A stretch of 41,531 nucleotides of DNA from a virus: the UHGV virus genome UHGV-0397187; one strand, written 5' to 3'. A model generated the notes under the pieces. It saw only the letters and a program-made list of their open reading frames with translations, did not search any database and had not been told where the DNA came from. The translations under genes were made by a program, and so were the position numbers. This document shows, piece by piece, positions 8,087-17,930 of this stretch (within the stretch, counting starts at the first letter, position 1; every line of letters begins with the position of its first letter).

Positions 8087-8506
8087 TTACTCCGGTGGGG
8101 GATTATCTTTAAGCCTGCCTCTCAAATATTTTTCTACATACTCATCGATTTCTTTTAGCCGGACTTCAAATAGCTCAATCATTCGTTGTTGTTCTGAGCC
8201 CGGTAGCTGGTTAAACAACTCAAGAAGTTTTCGTTGGGATTCATTTAACCACAATTCAGAAGATTCCTGTTCTCCAAAGAGGAGCTCAGGTGGAGATATG
8301 CCAAGAGCCTTTCCCAATACGACAGCGTCATGCACTCCAACATTTCTGCTGCCCGCCTCATAGTTACCTATACGCGATTGCGTCCATCCGCAGATTTCAG
8401 CAAGTTTTCCTTGAGATAAACCAAGCTTCTGCCTGCGCTCTTTAAGACGCATTGCAATTTTGTCATTGAGCCTACTAGCGGCAATTTTTTCGTTTTCTTT
8501 TTCCAT
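8087..8506 (-). CDS. prophage repressor, HTH (XRE-family, RacR/CI-like)
   Basis: RQKLGLSQGKLAEICGWTQSRIGNYEAGSRNVG is a classic HTH; divergent from a Cro-like gene across a 96-bp operator region. Confidence 0.8.
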   Translation of the reverse strand: MEKENEKIAASRLNDKIAMRLKERRQKLGLSQGKLAEICGWTQSRIGNYEAGSRNVGVHDAVVLGKALGISPPELLFGEQESSELWLNESQRKLLELFNQLPGSEQQRMIELFEVRLKEIDEYVEKYLRGRLKDNPPPE

Positions 8507-8517
8507 TGCATCCTTGT

Positions 8518-8578
8518 ATCACGAATCGTGATTTACATAAAACACAAAACAGCTTGACCATATAACACAAGATGTGTT
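8518..8578. promoter_or_regulatory. divergent promoter/operator region (OR-like) between repressor and cro-like gene
   Basis: Palindrome atcacga-a-tcgtgat at 8518-8532; palindrome aacaca-aga-tgtgtt at 8564-8578 lying between a ttgacc -35-like and taaaat -10-like element. Confidence 0.55.
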
Positions 8579-8602
8579 TAAAATTGTCATCGGAGGTTTT
8601 CA

Positions 8603-8845
8603 ATGAACAAAATTTCAACATATCGAAAACAGCTTGGGCTGTCTCAAAGACAACTCGCTGTTCAGTTAGGGTGGATACAAAGCCGACTGGCAAATTACGA
8701 AGCAAATTTTCGTACCCCTGGACTAGAGGAGTGCAGAAAAATTGTTTCTACCCTTAATCGGCTTGGCGCTCATTGTGGACTTGACGATGTATTCCCCCCA
8801 GACGGTAAGCATAGCGAAAACAGCATAGGAGCGGTTGATTCATGA
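8603..8845 (+). CDS. Cro/YdaS-like HTH regulator
   Basis: RKQLGLSQRQLAVQLGWIQSRLANYEAN: HTH paralogous to the repressor HTH; first gene of the rightward operon. Confidence 0.75.
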   Translation: MNKISTYRKQLGLSQRQLAVQLGWIQSRLANYEANFRTPGLEECRKIVSTLNRLGAHCGLDDVFPPDGKHSENSIGAVDS

Positions 8846-14608: not shown

Positions 14609-14946
14609 ATTACCGAGTAAGGCGATGGACTACCTGAAGCGAAACGGGCTGACAAGCGTGGAGGATATTTTACGATGACCTGGCCTGAGGCATTCACCAC
14701 GGTAGGAATTGCAATGGCGGTGGCGCTGGTGGTGTATTCGATTTGCCGCTGGGGATAAAAACGGTTTGCGGGAAAAGGAGAGTTAAGTAGAATTGCAGCG
14801 GGTGCTTGAGGCTATCTGCCTCGGGCATGAACACCAACGGCAGATAGATAAAAGCCCCACCCGACTATAAATCGAAGTGAGGCCCCTATATGCTCGTCAC
14901 ATATAGATTGCCTCTTACGGACCGAAAGGTCAAGGAGAAGCAGGCT

Positions 14947-15102
14947 ATGAAGCAGCAAAAGGCGATGTTAGTCGCCCTGATCGTCATCTGTTTAACCGTC
15001 ATAGTGACGGCACTGGTAACGAGGAAAGACCTCTGCGAGGTACGAATCCGAACCGGCCAGACGGAGGTCGCTGTCTTCACAGCTTACGAACCTGAGGAGT
15101 AA
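14947..15102 (+). CDS. hok: Hok/Gef-family type I toxin
   Basis: MKQQKAMLVALIVICLTVIVTALVTRKDLCEVRIRTGQTEVAVFTAYEPEE: hallmark Hok sequence; aaggag RBS; in-frame upstream extension from 14890. Confidence 0.9.
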   Translation: MKQQKAMLVALIVICLTVIVTALVTRKDLCEVRIRTGQTEVAVFTAYEPEE

Positions 15103-15171
15103 GAGACCCGGCGGGGGAGAAATCCCTCGCCACCTCTGATGTGTCAGGCATCCTCAACGCACCCGCACTTA

Positions 15172-15196
15172 ACCCGCTTCGGCGGGTTTTTTGTTG
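15172..15196 (+). terminator. intrinsic terminator after hok
   Basis: acccgc-ttcg-gcgggt followed by ttttttgtt. Confidence 0.75.
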
Positions 15197-15338
15197 CGCG
15201 CTGAATACGCAGGGTGAAAAATAACCATATATTTGATTATATACACAACAAAAAATAAAAGTCATTGCACCTGCACATTAAATAATCAAATATACGACGT
15301 GAAATAAATATTTTTCAGATTAATATTTTTGTCTCTAT

Positions 15339-15590
15339 GTGGATATAACCGTTTGTACTTATAAACCTGGAGGCATCGTGGAAAAAATAAAGAAACTATT
15401 TAGTAGCAAATATGCAGTCATACGTCGTGATGACCTGTCAGTTATAGTCGAAATGGATTACTTCCCTGAAACCAAAAAATCAATGATGTATCGTAATGGT
15501 CGAAAGGCAATTTTTTTACCGATGAGGGTAAGTGACATTATGGGAAATGATAAACTGCTGGATGAATTGCGAGTCAGAGCATCCTGTTAG
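15339..15590 (+). CDS. Rem-like small protein (Qin-type gene order hok-rem-DUF1367-Q)
   Basis: 83-aa ORF between hok and the DUF1367-like gene, same size and position as Qin rem; a GTG at 15377 with ggagg RBS is an alternative start. Confidence 0.45.
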   Translation: MDITVCTYKPGGIVEKIKKLFSSKYAVIRRDDLSVIVEMDYFPETKKSMMYRNGRKAIFLPMRVSDIMGNDKLLDELRVRASC

Positions 15591-15661
15591 TATTGGCATT
15601 AATTCTGGTATACTACATAACGGGCTGAACACCCATTCTACTGCGCCAGCGGAGAACTACG

Positions 15662-17102: not shown

Positions 17103-17128
17103 CTCAATCTGTTATCCGGGGCTATATT
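17099..17128 (+). promoter_or_regulatory. late promoter PR'-like (sigma70)
   Basis: -35 ttgact (17099-17104), 18-bp spacer, -10 tatatt (17123-17128). Confidence 0.6.
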
Positions 17129-17189
17129 CCTCACGCGCCAGCAAAATCTGGCGTCGGGATTGGCGTCCCGGATAGAGACCGCGACAGAT

Positions 17190-17213
17190 ACACGCCGCGA
17201 GCGTGTTTTTTAT
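17190..17213 (+). terminator. tR'-like intrinsic terminator about 65 nt downstream of PR'
   Basis: acacgc-cgcga-gcgtgt followed by tttttatt. Confidence 0.6.
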
Positions 17214-17372
17214 TGTCGTATGCACGCGCACATCTGAATTATGGTGGGCTGTGTGGGGGCGGAGAGATCCGCGCCGGTCGGTTTCCCGGTTACGCCAACC
17301 CTGCACAGTTCACCACCAGATGATTGGCGTCGTCGGTGGTGAGTTATTAAGAAACCACCAGAGGGCGTCATT

Positions 17373-17930
17373 ATGACAACTCAAATTTCTGTTGAAACTC
17401 TCTCCCCGATCACCCATAACCAGATTCCTGTTATTACCACCGAACTTTTGGCGCAGCTTTACGGCACTGAGCCGGTGCGTATTCGCCAGAATCATCATGA
17501 GAACAAAGTACGCTTCGTTGAAGGGAAACACTTTTTCAAAGTTGTTGGTAATGACCTTAAAGAATTGCGGGTCGCTTTAAACTACTCACAAAATCCAGTT
17601 TCACCCAAAGCCCGCTCCCTCATCCTCTGGACAGAACGAGGCGCAGCACGCCACGCCAAAATGCTCGAAACCGATCAGGCATGGGATGTGTTCGAAAAAC
17701 TGGAAGACTGCTATTTCAGTCAAAAGGATCCGTCAACGCCAGTTTCATGCCAGAAAAGTTACGACACGCGAGTTCTCTGTTATCAGAGAGGCGGTGTCAC
17801 TGTTTCCACAATTCAGTTACGGGATGATGATATTGTTATTTCCCTTGAGTCATGGCTGGAACTGGCGAGAGCCAATGGTTGGTTTGTTGTTCGCAGAGAT
17901 CAACTGGTGGAAAGGTTGATGCAGCTTTAA
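17373..17930 (+). CDS. ORF6N-domain (antirepressor N-terminal-like) protein, moron
   Basis: ITTELLAQLYGTEPVRIRQNHHENKVRFVEGKHFFKV fits the ORF6N/KilA-N-like pattern; own terminator downstream. Confidence 0.5.
   Translation: MTTQISVETLSPITHNQIPVITTELLAQLYGTEPVRIRQNHHENKVRFVEGKHFFKVVGNDLKELRVALNYSQNPVSPKARSLILWTERGAARHAKMLETDQAWDVFEKLEDCYFSQKDPSTPVSCQKSYDTRVLCYQRGGVTVSTIQLRDDDIVISLESWLELARANGWFVVRRDQLVERLMQL

What the first reader, a model, noticed from the sequence alone, without database searches (positions are those of the whole stretch)
15229..15303. Perfect 12-bp inverted repeat pair in the AT-rich rem upstream region
atatttgattat (15229-15240) and its exact reverse complement ataatcaaatat (15292-15303) lie 51 bp apart between the hok terminator and the rem-like gene. 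This may be a regulator binding-site pair, though AT-rich DNA lowers the significance.
Basis: seen in the sequence. Interest (0 to 1): 0.3.

Follow-up and report, generated by a model that had tools for sequence, protein, structure and literature searches.

The report
Lineage-specific inverted repeat upstream of prophage gene
A real 13-bp inverted repeat lies in the AT-rich control region of a small unknown prophage gene, but related prophages do not preserve it, so it is most likely an incidental feature of an ordinary promoter region, not a regulator-binding pair.

Summary
The repeat exists, but arm 2 was misplaced by 10 bp. The true arms are TATATTTGATTAT (15228-15240) and ATAATCAAATATA (15282-15294): 13 bp, perfect, 41 bp apart. 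It is unlikely by chance locally (P≈0.001 in the 150-bp AT-rich stretch) but only borderline across the window (P≈0.05).

Evolution does not support a functional unit. In 58 near-identical copies, 20 carry an uncompensated T>C in arm 2. The arms are no more conserved than their neighbours. Complementarity falls from 13/13 to 9, 7 and 4/13 in more distant relatives, and covariation is no better than slid controls. One lineage does show a compensatory change (12/12).

The downstream gene is not rem-like. It is a 70-aa phrog_1813 protein of unknown function (GTG 15378) that occupies the slot held by rem in K-12. Other lineages of this gene carry LexA boxes upstream instead of this block.

Best reading: the repeat is an incidental, clade-specific symmetry inside the AT-rich, terminator-insulated promoter region of a moron-like cassette. 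Arm 1 overlaps the -10 of a candidate leftward promoter, and arm 2 lies just upstream of a candidate rightward promoter. An operator pair remains possible (~25%). Interest is low.

The parts
15228..15240 (.). Inverted-repeat arm 1, TATATTTGATTAT
   Evidence: The right half (GATTAT[A]) is the conserved part across lineages.
15282..15294 (.).
   Evidence: 15283 T>C is found in 20 of 58 close copies. The arm is also a 10/13 direct repeat of 15221-15233 (read; one search lists 15221-15233 as a 3-mismatch match).
15241..15281 (.). 41-bp spacer between the arms, containing the conserved AAAAGTCATTG block
15171..15194 (+). hok mRNA intrinsic terminator (7-bp stem, T-run); left boundary of the AT-rich block
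   Evidence: The same terminator-then-block layout appears in L089 and L095.
15196..15377 (.). AT-rich (24-30% GC) non-coding block that travels with the downstream ORF
   Evidence: for composition. The block is alignable in five lineages and sits behind different upstream genes.
15236..15265 (-). Candidate leftward sigma-70 promoter: -35 ATGACT (15265-15260), 18-bp spacer, -10 TATAAT (15241-15236). The -10 overlaps arm 1.
   Evidence: It matches 10 of 12 consensus positions. It is the top PWM hit on either strand at the homologous place in most lineages that carry the block (tied with a plus-strand hit in L003 and L089). The score is not above shuffles (P=0.35), and the conservation excess is not significant (p=0.11).
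15299..15326 (+). Candidate rightward promoter for the ORF: -35 GTGAAA (15299-15304), 16-bp spacer, -10 TAATAT (15321-15326). Arm 2 lies about -52 to -40 from the inferred start.
   Evidence: The ATATT core of the -10 is an invariant run in the 13-sequence alignment. Homologous candidates score 7.2 bits in L089 and 8.9 in L003, but only 4.1-4.4 in the window type. This is an inference.
15369..15590 (+). GGAGG Shine-Dalgarno (15369-15373) and a 70-aa ORF (GTG 15378 to stop 15590), phrog_1813, function unknown
   Evidence: RefSeq annotates the same 213-nt CDS. It is not Rem.
14947..15102 (+). hok toxin CDS (Hok/Gef family); the upstream neighbour
   Evidence: The Rfam sok hit is at 14800-14949.
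15622..15634 (+). GGGCTGAACACCC: the start of sequence shared again with K-12 downstream of rem; right boundary of the exchangeable cassette

Best explanation
The 13-bp inverted repeat is a clade-specific, probably incidental symmetry. It lies inside the AT-rich 5' control block of a small, self-contained moron-like cassette made of a terminator, an AT-rich block and a 70-aa phrog_1813 gene. The cassette occupies the prophage slot between hok and the DUF1367/YbcO/Q genes, where K-12 Qin carries rem. The block most likely holds the cassette's own promoter(s). A candidate leftward promoter has its TATAAT -10 inside arm 1. A candidate rightward promoter for the ORF begins 5 bp to the right of arm 2. 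Both arms are dense in -10-like hexamers (TATATT, TATAAT/AATAAT), which AT-rich, horizontally acquired DNA produces readily. Arm 2 is also a direct repeat of the sequence overlapping arm 1, and the distant lineage has a clear direct repeat at the same two places. The symmetry is therefore best explained by an old local duplication in low-complexity DNA, not by selection for a palindromic binding pair. Shown: the repeat, its statistics, its lack of conservation, the cassette boundaries, and the non-homology to Rem. Inferred: the promoters, the duplication origin, and the absence of a dedicated binding protein.
For: Only borderline after window-wide correction (P=0.047). Among 58 near-identical copies, 3 of 26 arm positions vary against 30 of 156 in the rest of the block, and 20 of 58 carry an uncompensated 15283 T>C. 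Watson-Crick complementarity per lineage is 13/13 for the window type, 11-12 for its variants, 12 for L089, 9 for L002, 6 for L003, and 4-7 for the group at 55% protein identity. The covariation score of 0.127 is no better than the slid controls (+3: 0.132). The conserved half of arm 1 (GATTAT) pairs with the variable half of arm 2, where 1 of 5 positions is invariant. Some relatives have lost arm 1 through a deletion of about 60 bp between direct repeats (L076, L078, L083). Others have lost the whole block through IS1 events, and still keep an intact ORF. The motif is not enriched elsewhere in the window (15 matches against 13.1 expected). It is unlike the immunity-region palindromes. Candidate promoters overlap or abut the arms. 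The cassette is exchangeable: K-12 has rem with an unrelated upstream region between the same junctions.
Against: The local probability of such a repeat is about 0.001. It is the longest short-range perfect inverted repeat in the window. The L089/L090 lineage keeps a 12/12 repeat through changes on both arms (15239 A>G with 15283 T>C). The arm centres are 54 bp apart, about 5 helical turns, which would suit looping. The candidate promoters are not statistically supported on their own: the PWM score is not above shuffles (P=0.35), and the conservation excess is p=0.11.
Confidence: 0.55

Rival explanations
1. The two arms are paired operator sites for an unidentified DNA-binding regulator. Bound proteins at the two sites, 54 bp centre to centre, would contact each other by looping. 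Binding at arm 1 would occlude the leftward -10, and binding at arm 2, just upstream of the rightward -35, would modulate transcription of the 70-aa gene. In this lineage the pair would replace the LexA control seen in sister lineages.
For: Local P is about 0.001. The L089/L090 lineage shows a compensatory double change. The arms overlap or abut the candidate promoters. Three other lineages of the same gene family have canonical LexA boxes (CTGT-N8-ACAG) in their upstream regions, so the gene is typically under dedicated repressor control. Genes in this slot can be regulated antirepressors: Rem (bioRxiv 10.1101/2023.04.14.536235) and the terminator-LexA box-gene layout of Gifsy phages (PMC3121763).
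Against: The arms evolve at the neutral rate of the block. One third of close copies have a mismatch, and the L002 lineage, which is about 92% identical over the block plus ORF, has only 9/13. There is no covariation above slid controls. There are no further copies in the prophage. The arms do not resemble the operators of the resident short HTH repressor and Cro. Thirteen-bp arms 41 bp apart are not the geometry of a single dimer operator.
Confidence: 0.25
2. The repeat forms an RNA hairpin in a transcript that spans both arms. The minus strand is more likely, where the hairpin would be followed by UGGUUAUUUUU. It would act as a weak terminator or a processing or stability element.
For: The minus-strand RNA folds to -22.7 kcal/mol (z=-2.4, 1 of 200 shuffles as good), against -13.7 (z=-1.5) for the plus strand. 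The common 15283 T>C and the L089 15228 T>C both give G-U pairs on the minus strand. The L089 state completes an A-U to G-U to G-C series.
Against: The stem is almost pure A-U with a 41-nt loop. No Rfam family matches. Both candidate minus-strand promoters start inside or downstream of the arms, so no predicted transcript contains both. 15234 T>A and 15282 A>G break the minus-strand pairing. Covariation is not above controls.
Confidence: 0.07
3. The arms are the terminal inverted repeats of a tiny (67-bp) mobile or miniature element, or the footprint of one.
For: Perfect 13-bp termini. The AT-rich block is a proven insertion target for IS1.
Against: There is no target-site duplication at the flanks. 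There are no other copies in the window. In 5426 E. coli genomes the AT-rich block plus ORF matched a single place per genome in all but one of the 175 genomes that carry it. The interior is homologous across lineages in which the termini have diverged.
Confidence: 0.03

Closest known systems
Terminator-insulated, separately regulated small genes in the nin/Q-proximal region of lambdoid prophages: the Gifsy LexA box-dinI-antirepressor units (PMC3121763) and rem of Qin (bioRxiv 10.1101/2023.04.14.536235)
   Same: The position is the same: downstream of the replication genes and upstream of Q, directly after an intrinsic terminator. The unit is a small ORF (70 aa) with its own upstream non-coding region. 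The resident repressor is a short (139 aa) HTH_3 protein of the DicA/GfoR type with no S24 peptidase domain. Sister lineages of the ORF carry LexA boxes.
   Different: The ORF is not homologous to Rem. Its function is unknown and the structure model is of low confidence (pLDDT 59). The window lineage has no LexA box and has instead an AT-rich block with the inverted repeat. Antirepressor activity is untested.
Prophage morons: AT-rich, horizontally acquired cassettes with their own promoter and terminator
   Same: GC drops to 24-40% across the block and ORF against about 50% in the flanks. The boundaries are sharp. Alternative cassettes occupy the same junctions (rem in K-12). The gene family is narrow, limited to E. 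coli and Shigella.
   Different: No promoter or transcript has been shown here. The cassette relies on the upstream gene's terminator, and no terminator of its own was found downstream.
Paired or looping operators, such as split inverted sites bound by repressors
   Same: There are two identical 13-bp sites in inverted orientation about 5 helical turns apart in a promoter region.
   Different: There is no cognate protein, no conservation of symmetry among relatives, and no additional sites.

Membership tests
Rem (PF27490 / phrog_340) for the downstream gene ('rem-like') | Sequence homology to K-12 Rem | tested here: not met
   BLASTP finds no alignment at E<=100. The ORF is phrog_1813 and Rem is phrog_340. 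hhalign of the two family alignments gives probability 0.3%.
Rem (PF27490 / phrog_340) for the downstream gene ('rem-like') | Position between hok and the Q-proximal genes | tested here: met
   K-12 has hokD-rem-...-ydfT(Q). The window has hok, the 70-aa ORF, DUF1367, YbcO and DUF1133. The shared junction is GGGCTGAACnCCC.
Rem (PF27490 / phrog_340) for the downstream gene ('rem-like') | Antirepressor activity against a DicA-type repressor | not testable with these tools
   This needs expression of the ORF in a reporter strain carrying the 139-aa repressor (8087-8506) and its operators.
Transcription-factor operator pair | Two symmetric sites beyond chance expectation | tested here: inconclusive
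   Local P=0.001. Window-wide P=0.047 for 13 bp or more and 0.15 for 12 bp or more.
Transcription-factor operator pair | Sites conserved, or co-varying, relative to flanking non-coding DNA in relatives | tested here: not met
   3 of 26 arm positions vary against 30 of 156 flanking positions. Arms invariant in five lineages: 12 of 26 against 29 of 89 elsewhere, p=0.25. The covariation score equals the slid controls. L089 shows a single compensatory case.
Transcription-factor operator pair | Further copies at other controlled promoters, or similarity to known operators of the element | tested here: not met
   15 matches with up to 3 mismatches against 13.1 expected. The immunity-region palindromes TCACGAaTCGTGA and AACACAagaTGTGTT are unrelated.
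LexA (SOS) box | CTGT-N8-ACAG palindrome in the promoter region | tested here: not met
   There is no perfect box anywhere in the window and none with 1 mismatch in 15196-15377. Boxes are present upstream of ORF relatives L086-88, L092 and L093.
Intrinsic terminator / structured RNA | G+C-rich stem with a short loop followed by a U-tract, or a match to an RNA family | tested here: not met
   The stem has one G-C pair and the loop is 41 nt. The terminator scan finds only the hok terminator. Rfam gives nothing credible.
Sigma-70 promoter (leftward candidate overlapping arm 1) | -35/-10 match better than composition-matched chance and conserved in place | tested here: inconclusive
   It matches 10 of 12 positions and is the top hit at the homologous place in most lineages with the block (tied with a plus-strand hit in L003 and L089). 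A maximum score this high occurs in 35% of shuffles of the window block and in 3-5% for the distant group. Hexamer invariance is 7 of 12 against 34 of 103, p=0.11.
MITE / IS terminal inverted repeats | Target-site duplication and multiple genomic copies | tested here: not met
   The flanks ...AACCA| and |CGACG are not duplicated. The block matched a single locus per genome in all but one of 175 carrier genomes.

The most novel reading that the evidence does not exclude
The inverted repeat is the operator pair of an unknown, non-LexA regulator. That regulator would control a divergent promoter pair in front of a new family of small prophage proteins (phrog_1813) sitting in the antirepressor slot. 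In this lineage the SOS (LexA) input seen in sister lineages would have been swapped for a different signal, giving an alternative, non-SOS trigger for a prophage with a non-cleavable DicA-type repressor.
Probability: 0.1. Interest if true: 0.45.

Novelty: new member of a known kind. Interest (0 to 1): 0.15.

Why it matters
As a repeat, it matters little. It is a clade-specific symmetry in AT-rich promoter DNA with no comparative support for function. The useful by-products are these. The rem-like label is wrong. The gene is an uncharacterised small-protein family occupying the slot that holds the DicA antirepressor Rem in K-12. Sister lineages of that family sit behind canonical LexA boxes. 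The family is therefore a reasonable candidate for a regulated accessory gene, possibly an antirepressor, in prophages with short, non-cleavable repressors. If the window-type block proved to be a non-SOS control region, it would show how the regulatory input of such cassettes is exchanged.

Tried and rejected
- Rfam, at gathering and permissive thresholds, finds nothing in the AT-rich block.
- A search for further copies of the arm motif in the window shows no enrichment.
- A LexA-box search of the window finds none.
- The arms are unrelated to the immunity-region operators.
- A leaderless 19-aa peptide starting at the inferred leftward start (ATG 15228-15226, minus strand) was rejected. The reading frame is not conserved in L089 or the distant group (read).
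- By-eye comparisons with recalled consensus sequences gave these results. The arms carry IHF-like WATCAA cores and a partial Fur-box resemblance. There is a DnaA-box-like 8/9 match at 15239-15247, and its inverted partner is at 15338-15346. None is conserved in relatives. These were not tested with matrices.
- Homology of the ORF to Rem was rejected.
- Neither Pfam, NCBIfam nor PDB sequence search gives a meaningful hit for the ORF.
- The AlphaFold model has mean pLDDT 58.8, too low for a fold search, so none was run.
- The genome-contig scan found only E. coli and Shigella.
- Conservation of the leftward promoter looked convincing by eye but did not reach significance.

Full report
**Observation.** ATATTTGATTAT is at 15229-15240, as reported. 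Its reverse complement is at 15282-15293, not 15292-15303, so the arms are 41 bp apart, not 51. The perfect repeat is 13 bp: TATATTTGATTAT 15228-15240 and ATAATCAAATATA 15282-15294. It extends to 16 nt at 94% complementarity.

- **Local chance.** In 2000 dinucleotide-preserving shuffles of the 150-bp AT-rich stretch (27% GC), a perfect inverted repeat of at least 12 bp appeared in 0.1%.
- **Window-wide chance.** It is the only perfect inverted repeat of at least 12 bp with a loop of at most 100 bp. Block shuffles that keep local composition give at least one repeat of 13 bp or more in 4.7% of cases, and of 12 bp or more in 15%.
- **Net.** The repeat is locally striking but only borderline once the search space is counted.

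**Context.** The window is a lambdoid prophage carrying RalA, DicF, sok, isrK and C4 RNAs.
- The repeat lies in a 24-30% GC non-coding block (15196-15377).
- Upstream are hok (14947-15102) and its intrinsic terminator (15171-15188 plus a T-run).
- Downstream is an ORF. Its likely start is GTG 15378, preceded by GGAGG at 15369-15373, giving 70 aa. RefSeq annotates the same 213-nt CDS.
- DUF1367, YbcO and a DUF1133/Q-like gene follow.

**The gene is not rem-like.** In K-12 Qin, rem sits at the equivalent position after hokD. The two proteins are nevertheless unrelated.
- BLASTP finds no alignment.
- The ORF is phrog_1813 and Rem is phrog_340.
- hhalign of the two family alignments gives 0.3% probability.
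- The two upstream regions are also unrelated. Similarity between the window and K-12 stops after the hok terminator and resumes at GGGCTGAACnCCC (15622-15634).

The AT-rich block plus ORF is therefore an exchangeable cassette. It is present in 175 of 5426 complete E. coli genomes. It also occurs behind other upstream genes: an ATP-binding protein in L002, a peptidase S8 gene in L089, and a P-loop NTPase with a retained hok 3' remnant in L095.

**Comparative test of the repeat.** I gathered 80 IMG/VR loci plus E. coli, NCBI, ENA and Logan loci that encode relatives of the ORF.

Close copies (58 window-type copies):
- 33 of 182 block positions vary.
- The arms hold 3 of these in 26 positions, against 30 in 156 elsewhere, so the arms are not protected.
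- The commonest arm change, 15283 T>C, is in 20 of 58 copies and is never compensated at 15239 within this clade.
- 15234 T>A and 15282 A>G are also uncompensated.

Across lineages, Watson-Crick complementarity of the 13 pairs is as follows:

| Lineage | Complementary pairs of 13 |
|---|---|
| Window type | 13 |
| Window-type variants | 11-12 |
| L089/L090 | 12 |
| L002 group | 9 |
| L003 | 6 |
| L074-L080 (55% protein identity) | 4-7 |

- On an 18-sequence alignment, the covariation score (0.127) is matched by the slid controls (+3: 0.132; +2: 0.092).
- The conserved part of arm 1 is its right half, GATTAT(A). Its pairing partner in arm 2 (15282-15286) is variable, with 1 of 5 positions invariant.
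- Some relatives lack arm 1 through a deletion of about 60 bp between direct repeats (L076, L078, L083).
- Others have an IS1 inserted between the arms (L091, with a 9-bp duplication GAAATAAAA). Others have lost the whole block to an IS1-associated deletion (L005, L006, L008, L013, L014). All keep an intact ORF.
- The single point in favour is L089/L090. There, 15239 A>G and 15283 T>C together keep ATATTTGATTGT / ACAATCAAATAT perfectly complementary. That block is much more diverged from the window than the L002 block (by eye), and the arm-2 allele is a common polymorphism, so one coincident change is not strong evidence.

**What the arms overlap.**
- The simple promoter scan gives one strong match in the region, on the minus strand: ATGACT (15265-15260), 18 bp, TATAAT (15241-15236). 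It matches 10 of 12 positions, and its -10 lies inside the extended arm 1.
- A position-weight scan puts the same promoter at the homologous place as the best or joint-best hit on either strand in every lineage that has the block. It reads TACAAT in L089, TGGACA-18-TCTAAT in L003, and ATGACA-18-TATAAT in the distant group.
- The controls temper this. A score that high occurs in 35% of shuffles of the window block, and in 3-5% for the distant group. Hexamer invariance across five lineages is 7 of 12 against 34 of 103 elsewhere, p=0.11. It remains a candidate only.
- A rightward candidate is GTGAAA (15299-15304), 16 bp, TAATAT (15321-15326). The ATATT core of its -10 is an invariant run in the 13-sequence alignment. 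Homologous versions score better in L089 and L003 (ATGAAA or GTGAAA, 17 bp, TATATT). It would place arm 2 at about -52 to -40.
- Both arms are packed with -10-like hexamers.
- Arm 2 is also a direct repeat (10/13) of 15221-15233, which overlaps arm 1.
- The distant lineage has an obvious direct repeat (GTCAAAAAATARCCA) at the same two places.
- An old local duplication in a quasi-palindromic AT-rich sequence is therefore a sufficient origin for the symmetry.

**Other tests.**
- The motif is not enriched elsewhere in the prophage (15 matches against 13.1 expected).
- It is unlike the palindromes between the 139-aa HTH_3 repressor gene and the cro-like gene (TCACGAaTCGTGA 8519-8531; AACACAagaTGTGTT 8564-8578).
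- There is no LexA box in the window.
- As RNA, the plus strand folds unremarkably (z=-1.5). The minus strand folds somewhat better (z=-2.4). The stem is almost all A-U with a 41-nt loop, and no predicted transcript spans both arms.
- Rfam has nothing in the block.

**Regulatory setting.**
- Rem of K-12 is an antirepressor of DicA (bioRxiv 10.1101/2023.04.14.536235).
- Gifsy antirepressor units are LexA-controlled. They sit downstream of the replication genes, directly after terminator-like palindromes (PMC3121763).
- The resident repressor here is a short DicA-type HTH protein.
- Three other lineages of the phrog_1813 gene have canonical LexA boxes in otherwise different upstream regions: TACTGTATATAATTACAGTG in L086-88, TACTGTAATTATGTACAGTT in L092, and GCTGTATGCATGTACAGTA in L093.
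- This suggests the gene family is normally under dedicated control. It keeps alive the idea that the window-type block carries a different operator.
- That is context, not evidence that the repeat is the operator.
- The prophage also has a P1-type C4/isrK-ORF6N module (17122-17930). This is a more obvious antirepressor candidate.

**Verdict.**

| Reading | Confidence |
|---|---|
| Incidental, clade-specific symmetry within the promoter-bearing AT-rich leader of a moron-like cassette | ~0.55 |
| Operator pair for an unknown regulator | ~0.25 |
| RNA hairpin | ~0.07 |
| Mobile-element termini | ~0.03 |

Interest is low.

Noticed in passing
L086:1144-1163, L092 about 40-60 nt upstream of 948, L093 about 190 nt upstream of 1201: Relatives of the 70-aa ORF (52-77% identity) with different upstream regions carry canonical LexA boxes (CTGT-N8-ACAG). 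They read TACTGTATATAATTACAGTG, TACTGTAATTATGTACAGTT and GCTGTATGCATGTACAGTA. This suggests phrog_1813 genes are SOS-controlled in those lineages. The window type has no such box.
   Followed up: partly
window 15378-15590: The 'rem-like' ORF is a 70-aa protein of phrog_1813, found only in E. coli and Shigella. It has no Pfam or PDB match and is unrelated to Rem. The 83-aa reading from GTG 15339 is probably too long, because GGAGG at 15369-15373 serves GTG 15378.
   Followed up: yes
L091:310-1077; L013/L014/L008:682-1449; also L005 and L006: IS1 has hit this AT-rich block at least twice independently. L091 has a simple insertion between the two arms with a 9-bp duplication, GAAATAAAA. Five other loci have an IS1-associated deletion that joins sequence matching window ~12.17-12.2 kb (ATGGAAATAAAACCAGAAGATGAGTT) to about 15330, removing hok and the block.
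   Followed up: partly
L076, L078, L083 (upstream of 1501): A deletion of about 60 bp between two GTCAAAAAATARCCA direct repeats removes the equivalent of arm 1 and the spacer in three members of the distant group. The ORF is left intact.
   Followed up: partly
window 15111-15192: The hok mRNA 3' end and terminator give a sub-threshold Rfam match to isrK over the full model (30.5 bits, E=1e-4, gathering score 50). A true isrK lies at 17135-17211. The two may share ancestry in their 3' parts.
   Followed up: no
window 17122-17930: There is a P1 immI-like module: c4-a1b1 targets, isrK and C4 antisense RNA, followed by an ORF6N-domain (Ant-like) protein. This is a likely antirepressor system of this prophage, downstream of the Q-like gene.
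   Followed up: partly
window 8087-8845: The immunity region has a short (139 aa) HTH_3 repressor without a peptidase S24 domain (DicA/GfoR type), divergent from an 80-aa Cro-like HTH protein. Two different perfect palindromes lie between them: TCACGAaTCGTGA (8519-8531) and AACACAagaTGTGTT (8564-8578).
   Followed up: partly
L094 (PP818812.1 11144-16554): A GenBank record named 'Actinobacillus phage vB_Apl-pPE4' is 97.8% identical to this E. coli prophage region and has the same hok, 70-aa ORF, DUF1367 gene order. The host assignment of that record looks doubtful.
   Followed up: no
L095:2391-2500 (NZ_CP126934.1): In APEC E19057 the hok coding region is replaced by a P-loop NTPase gene on the opposite strand. 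The last ~80 nt of the hok 3' UTR, including the terminator, are retained in front of an identical AT-rich block.
   Followed up: no
window 14800-14949: The Rfam sok (RF01794) match is reported on the + strand, the same strand as hok/mok, although Sok is antisense to the hok leader. This is probably a matter of how the family model is oriented.
   Followed up: no
window 15239-15247 and 15338-15346: Two DnaA-box-like 8/9 matches in inverted orientation, ATATACACA and TGTGGATAT, lie about 90 bp apart in the block. They are not conserved in L089 or L002.
   Followed up: partly
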